DNA from: Bacteroidia bacterium
GTDB lineage: Bacteria; Bacteroidota; Bacteroidia; JACCXN01
Direction: 5' to 3'
DNA length: 64,000 bases
Assembly: GCA_046299555.1 (NCBI GenBank)
Contig: JBKBHS010000004.1
Location: 120,959 to 184,958 of the forward strand
Below are positions 21,841-30,074 of the stretch, piece after piece (position 1 is the first letter of the stretch; the number at the start of each line of letters is the position of its first letter). The position numbers and the translations under genes are program-made. A model generated the notes under the pieces. That model was not told where the DNA came from and searched no databases. It was given only the letters and a program-made list of their open reading frames with translations.

Positions 21841-22305
21841 ATGGCAACTACCTTAAAAGCAGGAGACAAAGCACCTGAATTAAATGTAAACGACCAAAAC
21901 GGAAAAACGGTAAAGCTTTCTGATTATAAAGGAAAGAAATTGATTTTATACTTTTATCCGAAAGACGATACACCCGGTTGTACCGCAGAAGCATGTAATT
22001 TAAGAGATAATTTCGAAATGCTTAAAAAGAAGGGATTCGAAATTTTAGGGGTTAGTGCTGATAACGAAAAAAAACATGTAAAATTTATCGAAAAATATAA
22101 TTTACCCTTTCCGCTATTGGCAGATACCGAACAAAAAGTATCTAATGCATATGGAGTATGGGGTAAAAAGAAATTTATGGGTAAAGAATACATGGGAATT
22201 AACAGAACTACCTTTATAATCGATGAGCAAGGTAAAATTGAACATATTATAAGCGATGTAGATACAAAAAATCATACCGAACAAATATTATCACTATACA
22301 ACTAA
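21841..22305 (+). CDS. bcp: Thioredoxin-dependent thiol peroxidase Bcp
   Basis: [16 protein letters not shown]. Confidence 0.95.
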
Positions 22306-22309
22306 AATT

Positions 22310-23338
22310 ATGAGCAAAGAAAAAGAAGCAATTAAAGAGGTTAATAAAGAAAAATTAAAAGCTCTGCAACTTACCATTGATAAGTTAGAAAAAACCTATG
22401 GTAAAGGCACTATAATGAAATTAGACGGAGGGGTGGTTGATGAGGTAGAAGTAATACCTTCAGGTTCCATTACCTTAGATATGGCTCTTGGAGTAGGTGG
22501 ATATCCTAAAGGACGAATAGTAGAAATCTTCGGGCCTGAATCATCCGGTAAAACCACTTTAGCCATACATGCCATTGCAGAAGCACAGAAAAGAGGCGGA
22601 ATAGCGGCCATTATTGATGCTGAACATGCATTTGACCGTTCTTACGCCAAAAAACTGGGTGTAAATCTCGATGATTTATTAATCTCTCAACCGGATAATG
22701 GAGAACAAGCTTTAGAAATAGCCGATAATCTTATTCGCTCAGGAGCTATTGATATTATTGTGATTGACTCAGTAGCTGCACTTACACCCAAAGGTGAAAT
22801 TGAAGGCGAAATGGGCGATTCTAAAATGGGATTACAAGCCCGATTAATGTCGCAAGCTTTACGTAAACTTACCGCTACAATTAATAAAACAAATTGCTGC
22901 TGCATTTTTATTAACCAATTACGTGAGAAAATAGGCGTAATGTTTGGTAATCCTGAAACAACCACCGGAGGTAATGCACTTAAGTTTTACGCCTCTTTGC
23001 GATTAGATATTCGCAGAATTGGACAGATAAAAGAAGGCGAAAATGTTACCGGAAACAGAACGCGTGTTAAAATTGTAAAAAATAAATTAGCGCCTCCTTT
23101 CCGTCAGGCTGAATTTGATATCCTGTATGGTGAAGGTATTTCACGTATCGGTGAAATTTTAGATTTAGGTGTTGATTTTGGAATTATTAAAAAGAGCGGC
23201 TCATGGTTTAGTTATGGCGATACCAAATTAGGACAAGGGCGCGATGCAGTAAAACAACTATTGAATGATAATCCTGAATTGGCAGAAGAGTTGGAAGCAA
23301 AAATAAGAGAAGCTTTAGCGCAAAAAAATGAGGATTAA
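22310..23338 (+). CDS. recA: Recombinase RecA
   Basis: [37 protein letters not shown]. Confidence 0.99.
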
Positions 23339-23359
23339 CTTTATTCCATAATTTTTGAT

Positions 23360-23385
23360 AAAAGCCTCCTTTGTGAGGCTTTTTT
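23360..23385 (+). terminator. Rho-independent terminator after recA
   Basis: AAAAGCCTC-CTTTGT-GAGGCTTTTTT. Confidence 0.8.
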
Positions 23386-23432
23386 GTTAATATTTAAAAT
23401 CATATTTATTTTAGAAAAGCTCCTATTTTACT

Positions 23433-23440
23433 TAGCTTTG
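23433..23440 (+). promoter_or_regulatory. -7 promoter element for dnaX
   Basis: TAGCTTTG matches TAnnTTTG, 9 nt before ATG 23450. Confidence 0.5.
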
Positions 23441-23449
23441 CCATACGTT

Positions 23450-25237
23450 ATGGAAAACTTTGTAGTATCGGCCCGTAAATATCGTCCTGCCACATTCGAT
23501 ACCGTTGTGGGGCAAGAAGCTATTACTACAACCTTAAAAAATGCCATAAAAAATAATCATTTAGCGCAAGCTTTTTTATTTTGTGGACCGCGAGGGGTAG
23601 GTAAAACAACCTGTGCGCGTATTTTAGCAAAAACCATCAATTGCTTTAACATTACTGATAATATAGAAGCATGCGACCAATGCGAATCTTGTGTTTCTTT
23701 TAGAGAGGGACAATCTTTAAACATCTATGAGCTGGATGCGGCTTCCAATAACTCGGTTGATGATATCCGAAATTTGATTGATCAGGTTCGAATTGCACCA
23801 CAATTAGGCACTAAAAAAGTGTATATTATTGATGAGGTGCATATGCTATCAACCGCAGCTTTTAATGCATTTTTGAAAACTCTCGAAGAACCGCCCAAGC
23901 ATGCTATTTTTATTTTAGCAACAACCGAAAAACACAAGATTTTACCTACCATTCTTTCGCGCTGTCAAATATTCGATTTTCAACGAATAAAAGCCGAAGA
24001 TATTGCCAATCACTTAGCTGCTATTGCACAAAAAGAAGGCTATGAAGCAGAGCCTGATGGTTTGTACCTCATTGCACAAAAAGCCGATGGAGGTTTACGC
24101 GATGCCCTTTCAATGTTTGACCAAATAATTAGCTATGCAGGTAAAATCAGCTATCAGGCGGTAATTGAAAATCTGAATATTTTAGATTACGATTATTACT
24201 TCAAAGTAATTGATTCGGTTAGTAAACGTGATATTCCCGCATTGCTTATCTTATTTAATGAAATTTTGGCAAAAGGATTTGACGGCCATAATTTTTTAAA
24301 TGGTTTAATGGCGCATATCAGAAATTTGTTGGTATGTAAAGATGTTCAAACATTGATTTTGCTCGATGTAGGAAATAATATAAAAGAAAAATATAAGCAA
24401 CAGTCGGCAGCTATTGCTGTTCCGGTGCTTGTTGAGATGCTGAATATTATCAATAAGTTTGAATTGAATTATAAAAGCAGCAAAAATCAACGCCTGCTGG
24501 TAGAGCTTTGTTTAATTCAGCTTTGTAACATAGGTGTTCCACCTGTAACTTCTGCTCCGGCAGAAGAAAAAAAAAATGACATAAGTCAAACTGCTCCACA
24601 TGCAGTTGCCACAAATACTAAAGTTTCTACAACTAATACATCGTCAACAATTGTAAATGTTTCGCAACAAGAAACTAATAAAGTACAAACTACCAATACT
24701 TTAAAAAGCGATACTAAGGAAACTCAAGATACTAAAGTAACATCAATAAATAGCTTTAAAAGTATAAAAGGGGTAAATAATTTTTCATTAAGCGAAATAC
24801 AAAAATCAGAAGTACAAACGCAAGACAAAAAAGATGAAGATAAATTATTAAATACCTCAGGGCCGGCTACGCCATTTACAGTTGATGAATTATCAAAATT
24901 TATTTTAGAATACGCAAATAGCGATAAAGTAACAGGAAAAAAATCGCTCGAATTAGCATTAAAATTTAAAAAGCCTCATTTAAATGAAGATTTTTCTGTT
25001 GTTATTACAGTAGAAAACGAAGTACAGCGAAATGCTTTACGTGCCGATTTAACAGAATTTACCTTGTTTTTAAGAGAAAAACTAAACAATTACAAAATTG
25101 TAACATCCATTGAAGTTGCTGAGGGAGATACTACCAAAAAAAGCTATACACCACGAGAGCGTTTTCAAAAAATGGCAGAAAAAAATCCTAACTTAATTAC
25201 CCTCTATAATAAGCTCGATTTGGATTTGGAGTTTTAG
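23450..25237 (+). CDS. dnaX: DNA polymerase III subunit gamma/tau (595 aa from ATG 23450)
   Basis: MENFVVSARKYRP, GPRGVGKTT, Zn-binding Cys cluster, DEVHML, SRC motif. Confidence 0.97.
   Translation: MENFVVSARKYRPATFDTVVGQEAITTTLKNAIKNNHLAQAFLFCGPRGVGKTTCARILAKTINCFNITDNIEACDQCESCVSFREGQSLNIYELDAASNNSVDDIRNLIDQVRIAPQLGTKKVYIIDEVHMLSTAAFNAFLKTLEEPPKHAIFILATTEKHKILPTILSRCQIFDFQRIKAEDIANHLAAIAQKEGYEAEPDGLYLIAQKADGGLRDALSMFDQIISYAGKISYQAVIENLNILDYDYYFKVIDSVSKRDIPALLILFNEILAKGFDGHNFLNGLMAHIRNLLVCKDVQTLILLDVGNNIKEKYKQQSAAIAVPVLVEMLNIINKFELNYKSSKNQRLLVELCLIQLCNIGVPPVTSAPAEEKKNDISQTAPHAVATNTKVSTTNTSSTIVNVSQQETNKVQTTNTLKSDTKETQDTKVTSINSFKSIKGVNNFSLSEIQKSEVQTQDKKDEDKLLNTSGPATPFTVDELSKFILEYANSDKVTGKKSLELALKFKKPHLNEDFSVVITVENEVQRNALRADLTEFTLFLREKLNNYKIVTSIEVAEGDTTKKSYTPRERFQKMAEKNPNLITLYNKLDLDLEF
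24567..24579 (+). other. Putative programmed slippage/frameshift site in dnaX (A10 followed by TGA)
   Basis: GAA AAA AAA AAT GAC ATA A; both alternative frames stop within a few codons. Confidence 0.7.
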
Positions 25238-25351
25238 TAAATTTTAGATTAATTTCAATCCCAATTAATTTTTATCTTTTCATTGTTTTGTTCTTAGGCG
25301 TTAAATAACATACTGCCTGTTATTGGCAAAAAATAAAATAAAGGTTAAAAT

Positions 25352-25422
25352 ACCTTCCTTCTCGAGAGGGGTTGGGGGTGTGTAAAAATCTCCCTCCTTG
25401 AGGAGGGATTAAGGGAGGTGTA
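25352..25422. repeat. Pair of REP-like GC-rich palindromes with G-rich tails
   Basis: CCTTCTCGAGAGGGG-TTGGGGGTGTG and TCCCTCCT-TG-AGGAGGGA-TTAAGGGAGGTG. Confidence 0.65.
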
Positions 25423-25495
25423 ACCATTTAATAAATAACTCCTGCCATTTACACATTAAGTAATTAAAGCATCCCATATTTTTACTAAATTAGCT

Positions 25496-25540
25496 AAGAT
25501 CAAACTAAAACAAACCGAAAAGTTTGTAATACTTAAATAG
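25496..25540 (+). pseudogene. Remnant 3' tip of a probable T9SS type-A cargo gene
   Basis: KIKLKQTEKFVILK* with no start codon; resembles the terminal strand of a type-A CTD; stop 7 nt before the next gene. Confidence 0.45.
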
Positions 25541-25547
25541 CGTATTT

Positions 25548-26585
25548 GTGTGGTGGAAAAATATAAATAGGCTGCTGGTATTATTGCTATGTGTTTTTAA
25601 TGAGGTATTTGCGCAGCAAAACCTCATTAAAAACCATAGTTTTGAAGAGCATACTGGGGATTGTGGCGCATCTATTTTTTTTGACAATATTGTCCCTTAT
25701 TGGTATTCGCCAGGAGGAGGCACCCCTGATTACTTTAATCAGTGTTATATGCCAGGTGGACTTGGAATACCTAGTAATGGTTTTGGTTTCCAATATGCAA
25801 ATGAAGGGAATGCATATGTAGGTATAAGATTAGGTCAAACACCTCCTGCTCCTGCGACTCAGGGTTTTTATGAATATATAAGCCAAAATTTTGGGAGTAC
25901 TTTAAAAGCAGGTAAAAAATATTGCGTTTTTTTTTATGCTTCTTTAGCTGATTTAGCCCATCTATCTGCTATAAATAGAATTGGGATGGTTATAAGTAGT
26001 AATGGTTTGGTTCAGAACAATATTGACCCAATTGTTATAAAACCACAAATTTATTACGATACTTTAAGTTTATTAAGCGATACCCTCAATTGGGTAAAAA
26101 TAGAGGGAGAGTTTGTTGCAAATGGCAATGAGCAATATGTAACCATAGGCAATTTTTATCCTGTAAGCCAAACTACTTATGCAGATAGTGTAATACGCGC
26201 CCCTTATTACTATATAGACAACGTATGGCTCTATGAGTGCGAAGAAGATACAGTACCCCTTGAGCCGCCCCCAGCCAGCGATAGCTCGCTGCATTACAAA
26301 TTACCCAATGTAATAAGCCCCAATGCCGATGGTTTAAACGATGCCTTTGTGTTAGAGAGCAGAGGGGTAAGAGAGGTGGGTATTACACTGTATAACAGGT
26401 GGGGCGAGGAAGTGCATAGGCATAAGGTATCAGGCATAAGTACAGATGTGCTTACCAAAACTATTTTATGGGATGCTACGCATAACAACAAACCTGCCCC
26501 GCAAGGTGTGTATTATTACATTATAGAACTAAGCACCAAAACAGGCGAGGTAATAATAGAGAAGGGTACGGTAATGGTACTATAA
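25548..26585 (+). CDS. Secreted protein with T9SS type-B (gliding motility-associated, CHU_C-like) C-terminal domain, copy 1
   Basis: Signal peptide ending VFA-QQ; NHSFEE...TPDYFN beta-sandwich-like domain; PNVISPNADGLND...YNRWGE...WD...GVYYYII tail. Confidence 0.88.
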   Translation: MWWKNINRLLVLLLCVFNEVFAQQNLIKNHSFEEHTGDCGASIFFDNIVPYWYSPGGGTPDYFNQCYMPGGLGIPSNGFGFQYANEGNAYVGIRLGQTPPAPATQGFYEYISQNFGSTLKAGKKYCVFFYASLADLAHLSAINRIGMVISSNGLVQNNIDPIVIKPQIYYDTLSLLSDTLNWVKIEGEFVANGNEQYVTIGNFYPVSQTTYADSVIRAPYYYIDNVWLYECEEDTVPLEPPPASDSSLHYKLPNVISPNADGLNDAFVLESRGVREVGITLYNRWGEEVHRHKVSGISTDVLTKTILWDATHNNKPAPQGVYYYIIELSTKTGEVIIEKGTVMVL

Positions 26586-26655
26586 CCCCCTTCTAATTCC
26601 CCCTCAGGGGGAAGGATTAGCCTCTCCCGATTTATTAGAAAATTAAGTGAGGTGT
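26585..26655. repeat. REP-like palindromic junction element
   Basis: TTCCCCCT-C-AGGGGGAA hairpin, then CCTCTCCCGATTTATTAGAAAATTAAGTGAGGTG. Confidence 0.65.
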
Positions 26656-26729
26656 TACCATTTAATAACTAACTCCTGCCGTTTACACATTAAGTAATTA
26701 AAGCATCCCATATTTTTACTAAATTAGCT

Positions 26730-26774
26730 AAGATCAAACTAAAACAAACCGAAAAGTTTGTAATACTTAAATAA
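26730..26774 (+). pseudogene. Remnant 3' tip of a probable T9SS type-A cargo gene (duplicate of 25496-25540)
   Basis: Same KIKLKQTEKFVILK* peptide, TAA stop. Confidence 0.45.
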
Positions 26775-26781
26775 CGTATTT

Positions 26782-27804
26782 GTGTGGTGGAAAAATATAA
26801 ATAGGCTGCTGGTATTATTGCTATGTATTTTAAATGAGGTATTTGCGCAGCAAAACCTCATTAAAAACCATAGTTTTGAGGAATATAAGTCAGACTGTAA
26901 TTTTGTCTCATATTTAGATGTAGTTATTTGGACAACGCCTGGTGGCGGAACCCCTGATTATTTTAATTTTTGTAACACTATTGGTTTTTCAGTTCCAACA
27001 AATTTATTTGGCTTTCAATATGCAAATGAAGGGAATGCATATGTAGGTATAAGATTAGGCCAAACACCTCCTTCGCCTCAGGGTTTTTATGAATATATAA
27101 GCCAAAATTTTGGGAGTACTTTAAAAGCAGGTAAAAAATACTGCGTTTTTTTTTATGCTTCTTTAGCTGATTTAGCCCATCTATCTGCTATAAATAGAAT
27201 AGGGATGGTTATAAGTAGTAATGGTTTGGTTCAGAACAATATAGACCCAATTGTTATAAAACCACAAATTTATTACGATACTTTAAGTTTATTAAGCGAT
27301 ACCTTAAATTGGGTAAAAATAGAGGGAGAGTTTATTGCAAATGGCAATGAGCAATATGTAACCATAGGTAATTTTTATCCTGTAAGCCAAACTACTTATG
27401 CAGATAGTGTAATACGCGCCCCTTATTACTATATAGATAACGTATGGCTCTATGAGTGCGAAGAAGATACAGTACCCCTTGAGCCACCCCCAGCCGGGGA
27501 TAGCTCCTTGCATTACAAAATACCCAATGTAGTAAGCCCCAATGCCGATGGTTTAAACGATGCCTTTGTGTTAGAGAGCAGAGGGGTAAAAGAGGTGAGT
27601 GTAACGTTATATAACAGGTGGGGCGAGGAAGTCCACAGACATAAGGTATCAGGCATAAGTACAGATGTGCTTACCAAAACTATTTTATGGGATGCTACAC
27701 ACAAGAATAAACCTGCCCCGCAAGGTGTGTATTATTACATTATAGAGCTAAGCACCAAAACAGGTGAGGTAATAATAGAAAAAGGCATGGTAACGGTACT
27801 ATAA
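26782..27804 (+). CDS. Secreted protein with T9SS type-B C-terminal domain, copy 2
   Basis: Nearly identical to copy 1 except about 26880-27015 and patches of the CTD. Confidence 0.88.
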   Translation: MWWKNINRLLVLLLCILNEVFAQQNLIKNHSFEEYKSDCNFVSYLDVVIWTTPGGGTPDYFNFCNTIGFSVPTNLFGFQYANEGNAYVGIRLGQTPPSPQGFYEYISQNFGSTLKAGKKYCVFFYASLADLAHLSAINRIGMVISSNGLVQNNIDPIVIKPQIYYDTLSLLSDTLNWVKIEGEFIANGNEQYVTIGNFYPVSQTTYADSVIRAPYYYIDNVWLYECEEDTVPLEPPPAGDSSLHYKIPNVVSPNADGLNDAFVLESRGVKEVSVTLYNRWGEEVHRHKVSGISTDVLTKTILWDATHKNKPAPQGVYYYIIELSTKTGEVIIEKGMVTVL

Positions 27805-27875
27805 CCCCCTTCTAACTTCCCCCTCAGGGAGAAGGAATTGCCTCTCCCGATTTATTAGAAAATTAAGGGAGGTGT
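27804..27875. repeat. REP-like palindromic junction element
   Basis: CTTCCCCCT-C-AGGGAGAAG, then CCTCTCCCGATTTATTAGAAAATTAAGGGAGGTG. Confidence 0.65.
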
Positions 27876-27955
27876 TACCATTTAATAAATAACTCCTGCC
27901 GTTTACACATTAAGCAATAAAAGAATCTAAATTTTTTCTAAATTAGCTTAACTGA

Positions 27956-28114
27956 AATTATACATTAGGAGTACACGTTAAAACTATTGCTATAAACAAT
28001 ACAGAAGGCCTAATAGAAATAAACGAAAAGCAATGGGAAAGCGGAGTGTATTTTATGCGCATAATAGTAGAAGGCATAGAACAGCATAGCGCTAAGTTTA
28101 TATTAATTAAGTAA
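27956..28114 (+). pseudogene. Truncated T9SS type-A C-terminal sorting domain (orphan gene tail)
   Basis: NYTLGVHVKTIAINNTEGLIEINEKQWESGVYFMRIIVEGIEQHSAKFILIK*; in-frame TGA immediately upstream; GVYF and K-rich terminal strand match the CTDs of the two S8 proteases in this window. Confidence 0.75.
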
Positions 28115-28123
28115 AGCAAATAT

Positions 28124-29209
28124 ATGCGCTTGCATGGACTTATAATAAGTGTTGTTATGGTATATAGCCTATTGGTTAATGCACAAAACAATTTGGTGCA
28201 TAATCCAAGTTTTGAGGAATATACCGGCAATTGTGTGTTTATAGACTATAACTCTTTAACCCATTGGTATAACCCTGATTGTTTTGGTACTCCGGAATAT
28301 ATGCACGAATGTTTGGATTATCCCAATACAACCTCAGCAGGTGTTCCTGAAAACATTAGAGGCTACCAATGGGCCAAAGAAGGGAAGGCATATGTTCTAA
28401 TTAGTTGGGACAACAATTTATCTAGCTATGACGGCTTTAGAGAGTATTTAGCACAAAGGCTTAAAGCGCCCTTGCAGGCAGGTAAGGAATACTGTGTAAG
28501 TTTTTATGCTAGTTTAAGTGACTATGCGGCAAAGTTTGTTTATGGTGGCAGCAATGCCTTAGGCTTAATTTTATCAAAAGACAGCATTTATGCCGATTCT
28601 ATTTATTATTTTAATAGTTCATGGTGGTTGTGGAGTTGTAATAATATATATGGCACACCTGTAATAGGCGATAGCACAAAAATATTAGACGATACGCTCA
28701 ATTGGGTAAAAATAGAGGGCAAGTATATTGCCAAAGGCGGAGAGGAGTTTTTAGCAATTGGTAATTTTTATCCCAATAGTCAAACTCGATTTGAACGATA
28801 TGATTTTGATGGTTATGGTTCAACCGCCTATTTTATAGATATGGTAGAGCTTTTTTTGTGCGAAGATACGGTGCAAAAGCCCCTTGAGCCACCCCCAGCA
28901 AGCGATAGCTCGCTGCATTACAAACTACCCAATGTAATAAGCCCCAATGCAGATGGTTTAAACGATGCCTTTATGTTAGAGAGCAGAGGGGTAAAAGAGG
29001 TGAGTGTAACGTTATATAACAGGTGGGGCGAGGAAGTCCACAGGCATAAGATATCAGGCATAAGTACGGATGTTTTAAGCAAAACACAATTATGGGATGC
29101 TACACACAAGAATAAACCTGCCCCGCAAGGCGTATATTATTACATAATTGAGCTAAGCACCAAAACAGGCGAGGTAATAATAGAAAAAGGCACGTTAACG
29201 GTGTTGTAA
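28124..29209 (+). CDS. Secreted protein with T9SS type-B C-terminal domain, copy 3 (divergent N-terminal domain)
   Basis: Signal peptide VNA-QNNLVHNPSFEE; homologous but diverged N-domain; near-identical to copies 1 and 2 from PLEPPPA (28880) onward. Confidence 0.88.
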   Translation: MRLHGLIISVVMVYSLLVNAQNNLVHNPSFEEYTGNCVFIDYNSLTHWYNPDCFGTPEYMHECLDYPNTTSAGVPENIRGYQWAKEGKAYVLISWDNNLSSYDGFREYLAQRLKAPLQAGKEYCVSFYASLSDYAAKFVYGGSNALGLILSKDSIYADSIYYFNSSWWLWSCNNIYGTPVIGDSTKILDDTLNWVKIEGKYIAKGGEEFLAIGNFYPNSQTRFERYDFDGYGSTAYFIDMVELFLCEDTVQKPLEPPPASDSSLHYKLPNVISPNADGLNDAFMLESRGVKEVSVTLYNRWGEEVHRHKISGISTDVLSKTQLWDATHKNKPAPQGVYYYIIELSTKTGEVIIEKGTLTVL

Positions 29210-29227
29210 GCACCCTTAAAATTCAAC

Positions 29228-29280
29228 TTCCCTCTCGAGAGAGCTTGTCCCGATTTATTGGAAGAGTAAGGGAGGAGTTA
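29228..29280. repeat. Degenerate REP-like junction element closing the array
   Basis: CTCTCGAGAG palindrome, TCCCGATTTATTGGAA, TAAGGGAGGAGTTA. Confidence 0.55.
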
Positions 29281-29318
29281 AAACTTTAATTAGGAAAGAT
29301 AAAAGAAAGAATAATTTC

Positions 29319-30074
29319 TTATTCCTTTTCAAAATATTTCAACTCCACATTTTTTCCATCAAATACCGCATAGGAATTATATTTTACCCATTCGCCTAAG
29401 TTAATGTAGCGAGCGCCTTTATCTAACGATATATCCAATGGCAAATGACGATGTCCGAAAATAAAATAATCAACCGGAGGATTTTTTAAAAGGTATTCTT
29501 TGCAAAACTGTATCAGCCATTCTTCGTTTTCGCCTAAAAATATTTCGTCTGCTTCAGCATTGGCCATTCTGCTTTTTCGGCTGAAATAATTAGCCAGTCC
29601 TATGCCAAAATTGGGATGCAATCGTGCAAATAACCATTGGCAAAAGGGATTGGCAAAAATTTTTTTAATCAACTTATATCCTTTATCACCGGGGCCTAAT
29701 CCATCGCCATGCCCCAAAAAAAATTTTTTGCCGTCAATTTCTTTTAATATCGGTTCTTTGTACAATTTCACTCCCAACTCTTCCTGAAAATAAGTAAAGC
29801 TCCACATATCATGATTGCCGGTAAAGAGATGAATGGGGATTCCCGAATCAGCCAAATGCGCTATGGTGCCAAGCAGGCGTGTATATCCTTTGGGAACAAC
29901 AGTTTTATATTCAAACCAAAAATCAAATACATCGCCCATGATGTAAATTTCTTTGGCATCATCTTTAATTTGATTTAAAAAACGAACAATGCGTTTTTCG
30001 CGTTCCAAACTTTTTTCGCGTGTGGGAACACCTAAATGAAAATCAGAAAGAAAATATATATTGCTTCTTATCAG
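29319..30074 (-). CDS. UDP-2,3-diacylglucosamine hydrolase (LpxH-like metallophosphoesterase), non-canonical start
   Basis: YFLSDFHLG lies upstream of the ORF-track start; GDVFDFW, GNHD, GHGDG, GHRH motifs. Confidence 0.88.
   Translation of the reverse strand: MIRSNIYFLSDFHLGVPTREKSLEREKRIVRFLNQIKDDAKEIYIMGDVFDFWFEYKTVVPKGYTRLLGTIAHLADSGIPIHLFTGNHDMWSFTYFQEELGVKLYKEPILKEIDGKKFFLGHGDGLGPGDKGYKLIKKIFANPFCQWLFARLHPNFGIGLANYFSRKSRMANAEADEIFLGENEEWLIQFCKEYLLKNPPVDYFIFGHRHLPLDISLDKGARYINLGEWVKYNSYAVFDGKNVELKYFEKE

What the first reader, a model, noticed from the sequence alone, without database searches (positions are those of the whole stretch)
25408..29280. Array of orphan cassettes: shared leader + amputated T9SS type-A gene tail + variable type-B cargo gene
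Seen: three units share one architecture. Each has a REP-like palindrome, then an ~88-nt leader ending CTAAATTAGCT, then a start-less gene end, then a secreted type-B-CTD gene 7-9 nt after that stop. The gene end is KQTEKFVILK* in units 1-2 and a 52-aa ...WESGVYFMRI...SAKFILIK* in unit 3. Similarity between unit 3 and units 1-2 stops right after CTAAATTAGCT and resumes at the PLEPPPA linker, so the piece between behaves as an exchangeable cassette with fixed flanks. Known: these tails resemble T9SS type-A CTDs, and a truncated upstream gene plus intact partner is the layout of orphan modules in CDI and Rhs systems. Inference: partner genes from two-gene T9SS operons were collected behind a common promoter-like leader. 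They may form a repertoire of protective/cognate partners or of variable surface binders. This is the best candidate for an undescribed system in the window; function is unknown.
Basis: partly seen in the sequence, partly recalled or inferred. Interest (0 to 1): 0.8.

Follow-up and report, generated by a model that had tools for sequence, protein, structure and literature searches.

The report
Triplicated T9SS lectin-like gene with stumps
Three tandem copies of a small secreted, sugar-binding-like surface protein gene each carry a dead end-piece of a large neighbouring gene that this genome has since lost; this is gene-family turnover, not a new system.

Summary
Three units (25330-29285) each have GC-rich hairpins, an 88-nt leader ending CTAAATTAGCT, a start-less gene end, and 7-9 nt later an intact type-B-CTD (CHU_C) gene.

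The 52-codon tail of unit 3 matches the last part of the type-A CTD model, below cut-off. The 10-codon tails of units 1-2 look like the same remnant with about 113 nt deleted.

The tails come from a lost gene. A same-genus genome has, between dnaX and the same lpxH-like gene, an intact 1537-aa type-A-CTD gene ending 10 nt before a single homologue. That large gene family directly precedes genes of this N-domain family in 18 of 28 assessable matches. Other genomes show similar stumps before extra copies. One (G123) keeps the large gene, three units and a homologue of this leader and tail.

So the array is a decayed two-gene module. The downstream gene multiplied and took the neighbour's 3' end with it. 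The large gene was then deleted here.

The constant blocks (CTD, hairpins, leader) are mosaics, which points to gene conversion. The N-domains are CBM-like and belong to deeply diverged types. The reading 'collected behind a promoter' is not supported, and a promoter is unproven. Interest is moderate to low.

The parts
25354..25421 (+). Hairpin block B0 upstream of unit 1: GC-rich inverted repeats.
   Evidence: Sequence. RNA fold -29.4 kcal/mol, z -1.9. It resembles the hairpin that follows the type-B gene in G001 (80% over 41 nt, E 5e-4; alignment).
25408..25495 (+). Leader copy 1, 88 nt, ending CTAAATTAGCT.
25496..25540 (+). Tail 1: start-less remnant ending ...KQTEKFVILK*. Interpreted as the type-A CTD stump with an internal deletion of about 113 nt.
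   Evidence: Translation. It aligns to both ends of tail 3 and to the 3' end of the G001 large gene.
25548..26585 (+). Gene g1 (345 aa, GTG start): signal-peptide-like N-terminus, CBM-like N-domain, type-B CTD.
26586..26661 (+). Hairpin block after g1.
26642..26729 (+). Leader copy 2.
26730..26774 (+). Tail 2, with the same KQTEKFVILK* end as tail 1.
26782..27804 (+). Gene g2 (340 aa), a recent duplicate of g1 apart from a divergent patch at aa 35-90.
   Evidence: N-domain 207/234 identical to g1. The patch has dN 0.39 and dS 1.7, against dS about 0.1 in the flanks.
27805..27881 (+). Hairpin block after g2.
27862..27948 (+). Leader copy 3.
   Evidence: A homologue lies upstream of unit 3 in G123.
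27956..28114 (+). Tail 3: a 52-codon start-less open frame, the C-terminal part of a type-A CTD (pseudogene stump).
   Evidence: TIGR04183 positions 30-70/72, E 1e-3, 19.1 bits against a cut-off of 23. PF18962 gives 18 bits against 27. My own CTD-A profile gives E 6e-5. Reading the upstream leader through with X at stops does not extend the match.
28124..29209 (+). Gene g3 (361 aa, ATG start), with an N-domain of a different deep type.
   Evidence: AF2 model pLDDT 80, pTM 0.82. Tree.
29210..29285 (+). Hairpin block after g3. Similarity to the other constant blocks ends here.
26256..26729 (+). Constant block 1 (CTD of g1, hairpins, leader 2). The other copies are 27475-27948 and 28880-29285.
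   Evidence: Sliding identity. Mosaic site patterns. Runs test.

Best explanation
The region is a three-copy tandem array of one small T9SS cargo gene. Each gene has a signal peptide, a CBM-like beta-sandwich N-domain and a type-B (CHU_C) sorting domain.

The array descends from a conserved module. In that module a large beta-helix protein with a type-A CTD ('BIG') is followed, 0-10 nt later in tightly abutting examples (10 nt in G001), by one or more genes of this N-domain family. The two genes abut, so any duplication that copies the whole downstream gene must break inside BIG. Each extra copy therefore carries a start-less 3' stump of BIG's type-A CTD.

In this genome BIG, and probably a first copy of the small gene, was later deleted. 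This left dnaX, a hairpin, three units of (leader, stump, gene, hairpin) and the lpxH-like gene. In units 1-2 the stump then lost about 113 nt more.

The constant blocks (type-B CTD, hairpins, leader) are kept alike by gene conversion or unequal crossing-over. Exchange stops where homology stops: at the deletion in the stump and at the start of the diverged N-domain. That produces the look of 'fixed flanks with an exchangeable middle'.

Shown: the anatomy, the origin of the stump, synteny, the recurrence in other genomes, the mosaic structure and the fold.

Inferred: the order of events; that the three proteins are T9SS-exported, surface-exposed glycan or ligand binders; and that the leader or stump now supplies the promoter and 5'UTR.
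For: 1. Synteny. In G001 the order is dnaX (83% aa identity), a 1537-aa gene, a single 349-aa homologue starting 10 nt after it, and the same 229-aa gene. The 1537-aa gene carries Peptidase_S8, PKD-like and type-A CTD domains by Pfam; a NosD-like beta-helix was detected in its relatives. G000 has no BIG: tblastn finds only a distant S8 paralogue at 29%, and the class survey gives 0 matches.

2. Tail 3 matches type-A CTD positions 30-70. The 3' ends of all the tails align with the 3' end of the G001 BIG gene.

3. The module is conserved. Of 30 BIG-core matches in 19 of 121 genomes, 18 of the 28 assessable are followed by an N-domain gene, 10 are not, and 2 lie at contig ends.

4. The same by-product appears elsewhere. 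G042 has BIG, an N-domain gene, a 96-aa orphan CTD-A and a second N-domain gene. G094 has a 269-aa stump that is 63% aa and 83% nt identical to the end of its own BIG, followed by a second N-domain gene. G022 has a 182-aa stump. G123 (L093) has BIG, three units, a full CTD-A stump before unit 2, and before unit 3 a homologue of this leader and tail with a different deletion (blastn 80%, E 1e-14 for the tail end; 71%, E 3e-4 for the leader).

5. Conversion. The 48 variable sites in the CTD form 16 runs of incompatible patterns, against a mean of 31 in shuffles; 0 of 100000 shuffles reach 16 or fewer. CTD dS is 0.32-0.59, whereas N-domain dS is 1.4-2.0 for the g1/g2 vs g3 pairs. The CTDs are 91-92% alike within this genome but only 82-87% alike to the CTDs of g3's own N-domain orthologues.

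6. Fold. The AF2 model has pLDDT 80, and Foldseek finds CBM16, CBM4, CBM61, a hyaluronan-binding module and gingipain adhesin domains at E 1e-5 to 3e-4.

7. The array is not an assembly artefact. Unit-specific segments occur in contigs of runs from different studies.
Against: - The 88-nt leader shows no detectable similarity to the 5' half of a type-A CTD. At DNA level 465-800 of 1000 shuffles score as well, and the profile alignment starts at position 33. Its origin is therefore not explained by the stump model.
- The leader is better conserved than the adjacent tail (90-96% within the array, 71% to G123). This could reflect function and not only conversion.
- The g3-type and g1/g2-type N-domains each have closer relatives in other organisms (P0003 82%, P0009 76%). 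Only g1 to g2 is a recent duplication in place. The older units could have arrived by recombination from outside and not by duplication here.
- The G123 module is not at the dnaX site: no dnaX lies within about 9 kb upstream. The module may move.
- The ORFs in G123 are broken by stops and frameshifts, which may be sequencing errors.
- The order 'duplication first, deletion of BIG later' rests on one short resemblance of hairpins.
- No type-B partner gene (PorP/SprF) lies nearby: there are 11 in the genome and none on this contig.
Confidence: 0.75

Rival explanations
1. A dedicated cassette system like CDI/Rhs orphans. The stump of BIG's CTD and the constant type-B CTD block serve as recombination handles. 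Stored N-domain genes can then be swapped into the position directly behind BIG, or among array slots, giving a switchable repertoire of partners or surface binders.
For: - Stump-plus-gene units recur behind intact BIG genes in G042, G094 and G123.
- The G094 stump is 83% identical over 593 nt to the end of its BIG, enough for homologous recombination.
- Many N-domain types share one CTD that is 75-92% identical.
- Copy number differs between relatives: 1 in G001, 3 in G123 and 3 in G000.
- BIG in G123 is 98% identical to G001's over aa 393-602 but only 26-40% identical further on, so the locus is hypervariable.
Against: - This genome has no BIG to switch behind.
- The G042 stump is only 29% aa identical to its BIG CTD, and the stumps here are decayed and deleted. 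They behave as neutral relics.
- There is no toxin or immunity logic. The variable gene encodes its own secreted protein.
- No structural variants were seen in four runs, apart from one joint of depth 2 and side 29.
Confidence: 0.12
2. The leader is a functional promoter and 5'UTR element kept by selection. It was acquired after loss of BIG's promoter so that each copy is transcribed on its own. Its conservation reflects function, not conversion.
For: - The leader is 90-96% conserved among the units, while the adjacent tail is not.
- It is conserved at 71% in G123.
- In an RNA-library run one 1287-nt contig (27717-29003) spans the end of CTD2, the hairpins, leader 3, tail 3 and g3.
Against: - No sigma-70-like site lies in the leaders.
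- No exact TAnnTTTG motif (consensus recalled from memory) lies upstream of any of the three genes.
- Contigs from an RNA library cannot show a start, and the library may contain DNA (note).
- Leader conservation is also expected if it is part of the conversion tract that includes the CTD.
- There is no Rfam match at or near any family's gathering score; the four hits have E 0.14-0.99.
Confidence: 0.35
3. The tails are chance open frames in AT-rich intergenic DNA, and the array is a plain duplication of a gene with its own upstream region. It has nothing to do with a type-A gene.
For: - Tail 3 is below the curated cut-offs (19.1 vs 23 bits and 18 vs 27 bits).
- The short tails are too short to test.
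Against: - An intact type-A gene ends at the same position in the syntenic G001 locus.
- Tail 3 aligns to the last part of the CTD with the GVYF motif and the K-F-I-L-I-K end.
- Longer, unmistakable stumps sit at the same position in G042, G094, G022 and G123.
Confidence: 0.03

Closest known systems
T9SS type-B CTD cargo proteins (TIGR04131 / PF13585 CHU_C; 'gliding motility-associated C-terminal domain' proteins such as SprB)
   Same: - A C-terminal CHU_C domain at the very end of each protein.
- Database relatives are named this way by their sources.
- The genome has the matching machinery context: 119 ORFs with a type-A CTD by my profile and 11 PorP/SprF genes.
   Different: - The proteins are small (340-361 aa).
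- There is no adjacent PorP/SprF-like gene. Type-B cargo is reported to be anchored through PorP-like proteins, with sprB next to sprF (PMC9143113; I saw the search listing and one Discussion passage).
- In relatives these genes are paired with an upstream type-A gene instead.
Orphan cdiA-CT/cdiI and Rhs orphan modules (recalled from general knowledge; no paper read here)
   Same: A truncated, start-less end of a large upstream gene, followed by an intact small gene, repeated in tandem downstream of the main gene. This layout with the main gene present is seen in G042, G094 and G123.
   Different: - The retained piece is a secretion signal domain, not a toxin tip.
- The small gene encodes a secreted binder-like protein with its own signal peptide and CTD, not an immunity protein.
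- In this genome the main gene is absent.
- The stumps are decaying.
Tandem paralogue arrays under concerted evolution (gene conversion between repeated genes)
   Same: Clustered, mutually incompatible site patterns in the constant block. The CTDs are more alike within the genome than to the CTDs of orthologous N-domain types elsewhere.
   Different: Only one module of the gene (the CTD with the downstream non-coding block) is homogenised. The N-domains stay 27-42% identical between types.
CBM-like beta-sandwich modules (CBM4, CBM16, CBM61, the hyaluronan-binding module of S. pneumoniae hyaluronate lyase) and gingipain K adhesin domains
   Same: Predicted fold: Foldseek probability 1.0, E 1e-5 to 3e-4, target-normalised TM 0.49-0.68. 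Relatives give sub-threshold PF02018 CBM_4_9 hits (17-19 bits against 25.9).
   Different: - No Pfam family reaches its cut-off on g1-g3.
- The domain is larger (about 230 aa) with long insertions of low confidence.
- The ligand is unknown.

Membership tests
T9SS type-B CTD cargo (TIGR04131 / PF13585) | A CHU_C / Bac_Flav_CTERM domain at the extreme C-terminus, scoring above the curated cut-off. | tested here: met
   PF13585 gives 60.2, 62.9 and 63.5 bits against a cut-off of 27. TIGR04131 gives 34.4 (g1, just under), 35.2 and 36.1 bits against 35.
T9SS type-B CTD cargo (TIGR04131 / PF13585) | An N-terminal Sec signal peptide. | not testable with these tools
   A hydrophobic N-terminus followed by A-Q is seen by eye (MWWKNINRLLVLLLCVFNEVFAQQ and MRLHGLIISVVMVYSLLVNAQN). 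No signal-peptide predictor was available.
T9SS type-B CTD cargo (TIGR04131 / PF13585) | A cognate PorP/SprF-like gene next to the cargo gene. This is typical, not obligatory. | tested here: not met
   PF11751 has 11 matches in the genome and none on contig C4.
T9SS type-A CTD (TIGR04183 / PF18962), applied to the tails | A full-length domain (about 72 positions) above the cut-off at the end of a complete ORF that has a start codon and a signal peptide. | tested here: not met
   Tail 3 covers only positions 30-70/72, at 19.1 bits against 23 and 18 bits against 27. It has no start codon. The upstream frame holds 3 stops, and reading them as X does not extend the match. It is a fragment of a member, not a member.
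T9SS type-A CTD (TIGR04183 / PF18962), applied to the tails | The short tails of units 1-2 belong to the same domain. | tested here: inconclusive
   At 10-14 codons they are too short for the profile. They align to both ends of tail 3 and to the 3' end of G001 BIG, and share the K-F-[VI]-[IL]-[LI]-K* end.
CDI/Rhs-type orphan modules | A full-length main gene is present in the same genome, and the orphan shares the junction sequence with it. | tested here: not met
   G000 has no BIG homologue: 0 matches at E<=1e-8, and tblastn finds only a distant S8 paralogue.
CDI/Rhs-type orphan modules | The variable unit is a toxin tip with a cognate immunity gene. | tested here: not met
   The stump is a secretion-signal domain. 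The downstream gene is a secreted CBM-like protein with its own CTD.
CBM-like beta-sandwich binders | A beta-sandwich (jelly-roll) fold like that of solved CBMs. | tested here: met
   AF2 model with pLDDT 80 and pTM 0.82. Fifteen PDB chains match at E<=0.001, led by CBM and adhesin modules.
CBM-like beta-sandwich binders | Membership of a curated CBM sequence family, or known ligand-binding residues. | tested here: not met
   No Pfam CBM family reaches its cut-off on g1-g3. Relatives give only sub-threshold CBM_4_9 hits.
REP (repetitive extragenic palindrome) elements | Many dispersed copies of one palindromic motif across the genome. | tested here: not met
   The loosest palindrome pattern gives 12 strand-hits. 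Specific motifs have 1-6 copies, mostly in this array. The blastn hits outside the array are few and weak, 36-59 nt long.

The most novel reading that the evidence does not exclude
The locus is one state of a hypervariable T9SS surface-binder module that has not been described. In it a large beta-helix type-A cargo gene is followed by a changeable array of CBM-like cassettes. All cassettes end in one near-constant type-B CTD, hairpin and leader block. That block, together with the co-duplicated type-A stumps, acts as a portable homology handle. Through it cassettes are duplicated, converted, swapped and lost between close relatives: 1 unit in G001, 3 in G123, and 3 without the large gene here. 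The result would be a lineage-specific repertoire of surface lectins.
Probability: 0.2. Interest if true: 0.6.

Novelty: new member of a known kind. Interest (0 to 1): 0.35.

Why it matters
For annotation, the start-less tails are pseudogene stumps and should not be called as genes. The three type-B genes are intact paralogues.

For T9SS biology, two modest points may be new. My two literature searches turned up nothing on them, but they were narrow.
- A large beta-helix type-A cargo family is followed by a CBM-like gene family in 18 of 28 assessable cases across many families of the class.
- In this lineage one type-B CTD, 75-92% identical, is shared by at least six deep N-domain types (27-42% identical to each other). 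The CTD is homogenised within a genome.

If the CTD is what matches a cargo to its anchor, this family would be a natural experiment for specificity: one address tag on many heads. None of this amounts to a new kind of system.

Tried and rejected
- **Leader as the decayed 5' half of the CTD.** In the tail's frame the spacing looked right (LLPFTH against YPNP). However, neither TIGR04183 with stops read as X, nor my own profile, nor DNA local alignment against shuffles gives any signal. The question is left open.
- **Promoter.** The sigma-70 scan finds nothing in the leaders. No exact TAnnTTTG motif (a Bacteroidota -7 consensus recalled from memory) lies upstream of g1-g3 or of the G001 gene. 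Near-matches are too common in AT-rich DNA to count.
- **Known RNA.** Only four sub-threshold Rfam hits, E 0.14-0.99.
- **Hairpins as terminators or REP elements.** None of the ten terminator-like hits is on the + strand within a hairpin block; the three hits on block B0 are on the - strand and the rest lie inside genes or upstream of B0. Folding z-scores run from +0.34 to -1.9. There are few copies elsewhere.
- **Strain variation.** The 'variants' in the X2 and X9 contigs over 25791-26370 are all unit-2 states (16 of 16). This is as expected if the assembler switched paths between near-identical repeats, so it is not counted as recombination. A joint 25246->27871 would give a one-unit form, but it has depth 2, one contig and side 29, which is too weak. 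Parts without cover in single runs are not interpreted.
- **Binding of the large protein's conserved core to the N-domain.** The G001 pair was submitted with alignments A3 and A4. The job returned 'no answer', so it counts neither way.
- **Closer relatives.** The metagenome scan with g3 returned only distant CTD matches.
- **Papers and supplements.** No supplementary files were consulted. PMC9143113 was seen as a search listing plus one Discussion passage. PMC12618676 and the other papers were seen only as listings.
- **Unpublished genome G003.** It is included in the tallies. No specific claim rests on it.

Full report
**What is there.** Between dnaX (23384-25237) and an lpxH-like gene (29319-30008, minus strand) lie three tandem units. 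Each has four parts.
- A block of GC-rich inverted repeats.
- An 88-nt leader ending CTAAATTAGCT (ends at 25495, 26729, 27948).
- A start-less frame that runs to a stop codon.
- An intact gene 7, 7 or 9 nt later: g1 25548-26585, g2 26782-27804, g3 28124-29209.

All three proteins end in a type-B T9SS sorting domain. PF13585 gives 60-63 bits against a cut-off of 27. TIGR04131 gives 34.4, 35.2 and 36.1 bits against 35.

**The tails.** The 52-codon frame before g3 matches the type-A CTD model over positions 30-70 of 72. The scores are E 1e-3 and 19.1 bits (cut-off 23) for TIGR04183, and 18 bits (cut-off 27) for PF18962. It is the last part of such a domain, without a start codon and with three stops in the frame upstream. 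Reading those stops as X does not lengthen the match.

The short tails of units 1-2 align to the first 14 nt and the last 31 nt of the long one. They share its K-F-[VI]-[IL]-[LI]-K* end. They therefore look like the same remnant with about 113 nt deleted, not a second kind of cassette. In the genome tail 3 matches only itself; the next tblastn hit has E 0.32.

**Where the tails come from.** In a same-genus genome (G001) the syntenic interval holds these genes in order.
- dnaX, 83% aa identical to the window's.
- A 1537-aa gene with Peptidase_S8, a PKD-like domain and a type-A CTD. A beta-helix core was not detected by Pfam in this gene. It is inferred from its homology to relatives that carry a NosD-like beta-helix.
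- Ten nt later, a single 349-aa homologue of g1-g3.
- The same 229-aa gene.

G000 has no counterpart of the large gene ('BIG'). tblastn finds only a 29% S8 paralogue and CTD-only hits, and the class survey gives no match.

**The module is conserved.** A profile of the N-domain (alignment A2) matches 87 of 121 genomes of the class at E<=1e-15, with up to 21 copies per genome. The conserved core of BIG matches 30 places in 19 of 121 genomes. Of the 28 that can be assessed, 18 are followed on the same strand, within 500 nt, by an N-domain gene. Ten are not, and two lie at contig ends.

BIG relatives share about 900 residues (beta-helix, then a helical region with a conserved C-P-x3-G-x-A-V-[YF]-x-A-R motif, then the type-A CTD). 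Their head domains differ: S8, RCC1-like and PKD. The downstream N-domain gene carries a type-B CTD in four tested cases and a type-A CTD in three.

**Stumps elsewhere.** The same layout recurs in four other genomes.
- G042: BIG (1355 aa), an N-domain gene, a 96-aa orphan but complete type-A CTD (PF18962 44.5 bits), then a second N-domain gene. The two genes are 91% identical over their last 276 nt and unalignable before that.
- G094: BIG, an N-domain gene, a 269-aa stump, then a second N-domain gene. The stump is 63% aa and 83% nt identical to the end of that same BIG.
- G022: a 182-aa stump before an N-domain gene.
- G123 (L093; its record title names a Bacteroidia MAG): BIG followed by three N-domain/type-B units. 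A complete type-A CTD stump with the pre-CTD motif lies before unit 2. Before unit 3 lies a homologue of the G000 leader and tail carrying a different internal deletion (tail end 80% over 72 nt, E 1e-14; leader 71% over 73 nt, E 3e-4). The ORFs in that record are broken by stops, possibly through sequencing errors.

**Why stumps arise.** The simplest cause is geometry. In tightly abutting examples such as G001 the two genes are only 10 nt apart, and in several relatives their stop-to-stop frames abut or overlap. A duplication that includes the whole downstream gene must therefore start inside BIG.

**This genome's history (inferred).** The hairpin upstream of unit 1 resembles the hairpin that follows the type-B gene in G001 (80% over 41 nt, E 5e-4). 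This suggests that BIG and a first copy were deleted after the array had formed. The evidence for that order of events is thin.

**Fixed flanks, variable middle.** For u2 vs u3, identity is 91-94% through the hairpins and leader. It is 0-70% across the tail and N-domain, and 82-98% across the CTD.
- Protein identity: N-domains g1-g2 207/234, g1-g3 100/230, and 76-79 of about 220 to G001. CTDs are 96-97/106 within the genome and 82-83/106 to G001.
- Synonymous divergence: dS in the CTD is 0.32 (g1-g2), 0.32 (g2-g3) and 0.59 (g1-g3). N-domain dS is 0.31 for g1-g2 and 1.4-2.0 against g3. The latter values are saturated and unreliable as numbers.
- Mosaicism: the 48 variable CTD sites fall into 16 runs of mutually incompatible patterns, against a mean of 31 in shuffles; none of 100000 shuffles reaches 16 or fewer. 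This indicates gene conversion or repeated crossing-over.

The tract ends where homology ends. On one side that is the deletion in the stump. On the other it is the start of the diverged N-domain.

g1 and g2 also differ by an imported-looking patch at aa 35-90 (30/56 identical, dN 0.39, dS 1.7). Their flanks have dS about 0.1. No donor was found in the genome.

**Wider family.** Among the 19 closest database proteins, the CTD is 75-92% identical in 17. The N-domains form at least six deep clades, 27-42% identical to each other.
- g3 groups with P0002, P0003 and P0004 (77-82%).
- g1 and g2 group with P0009 (74-76%) and P0011 (63-67%).
- P0005 and P0006 have a g3-like N-domain (58-59%) on a different CTD (34-38%).

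All these figures come, and all 19 rows were kept. So the N-domain types are old. Only g1 to g2 is a recent local duplication, and the CTD is homogenised within genomes.

**What the proteins are.** The AF2 model of the g3 N-domain (16-row alignment) has pLDDT 80 and pTM 0.82 and is a beta-sandwich. Foldseek against the PDB gives 15 chains at E<=0.001. The list is led by a hyaluronan-binding module, CBM16, CBM61, CBM4 and gingipain K adhesin domains. An ESM-Atlas look-up agrees weakly: one cluster with 10% CBM_4_9 at score 0.90.

I infer T9SS-exported, surface-held glycan or ligand binders. The genome has 11 PorP/SprF genes but none on this contig. Type-B cargo is reported to be anchored through such proteins (PMC9143113, one passage seen), so the anchor would act in trans.

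The genes do not need BIG. They are intact here without it, and at the thresholds used the N-domain profile matched many more genomes than the BIG query (87 vs 19 of 121).

**Is the leader a promoter?** This is unknown.
- It is private to this array in G000. It was not found in 20 relatives or by an exact-pattern metagenome scan (0 hits). A diverged copy sits in the same context in G123.
- No promoter consensus, terminator or Rfam family explains it.
- It shows no similarity to a CTD 5' half.
- An RNA-library run holds a contig spanning leader 3, tail 3 and g3, but contigs cannot show starts, and DNA may be present in such libraries.

**Reality of the array.** Unit-specific segments of all three units occur, nearly letter-perfect, in contigs of runs from different studies labelled sludge and hot-spring metagenomes.

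**Verdict.** It is wrong on 'collected behind a common leader' and on the CDI/Rhs analogy. The feature is a decayed, triplicated member of a conserved T9SS gene pair undergoing concerted evolution. It is ordinary in mechanism, with a mildly interesting family-level pattern.

Noticed in passing
G000 contig C1:436440-437071 (outside the window): A second type-A CTD remnant. A short ORF with a signal peptide stops after about 65 codons. Some 250 nt later there is a start-less 66-codon CTD end (my profile, E 6.6e-6). It lies just downstream of two other N-domain paralogues (C1:433560-434705 and 435490-436452).
   Followed up: partly
window 25650-25820 vs 26884-27040: g1 and g2 are near-identical except for one patch (aa 35-90, 30/56 identical, dS 1.7 against about 0.1 in the flanks). 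It looks like an imported segment, but no donor was found in this genome.
   Followed up: partly
L093 1-3336 and L177 (G123) vs L013 (G001): The large gene is 95-98% aa identical between G123 and G001 over aa 48-602. Identity falls to 87%, then 39%, then 26-31% towards the C-terminus. This is a sharp mosaic boundary inside one gene of two relatives. The G123 copy is not next to dnaX.
   Followed up: partly
L060 and L062 (G054:C41, G065:C9), and rows with frames of 700-2234 aa: The same N-domain also occurs as an internal domain of very large proteins, including some members of the large beta-helix family itself.
   Followed up: no
window 21841-25237: The upstream genes are housekeeping: a thiol peroxidase (Bcp type), recA and dnaX. 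The variable array thus sits in a conserved core-genome neighbourhood.
   Followed up: yes
G000 C1:379889-380041: The few hairpin look-alikes outside the array lie just upstream of a PorP/SprF gene (C1:380125-380946) and downstream of another type-B CTD gene.
   Followed up: no
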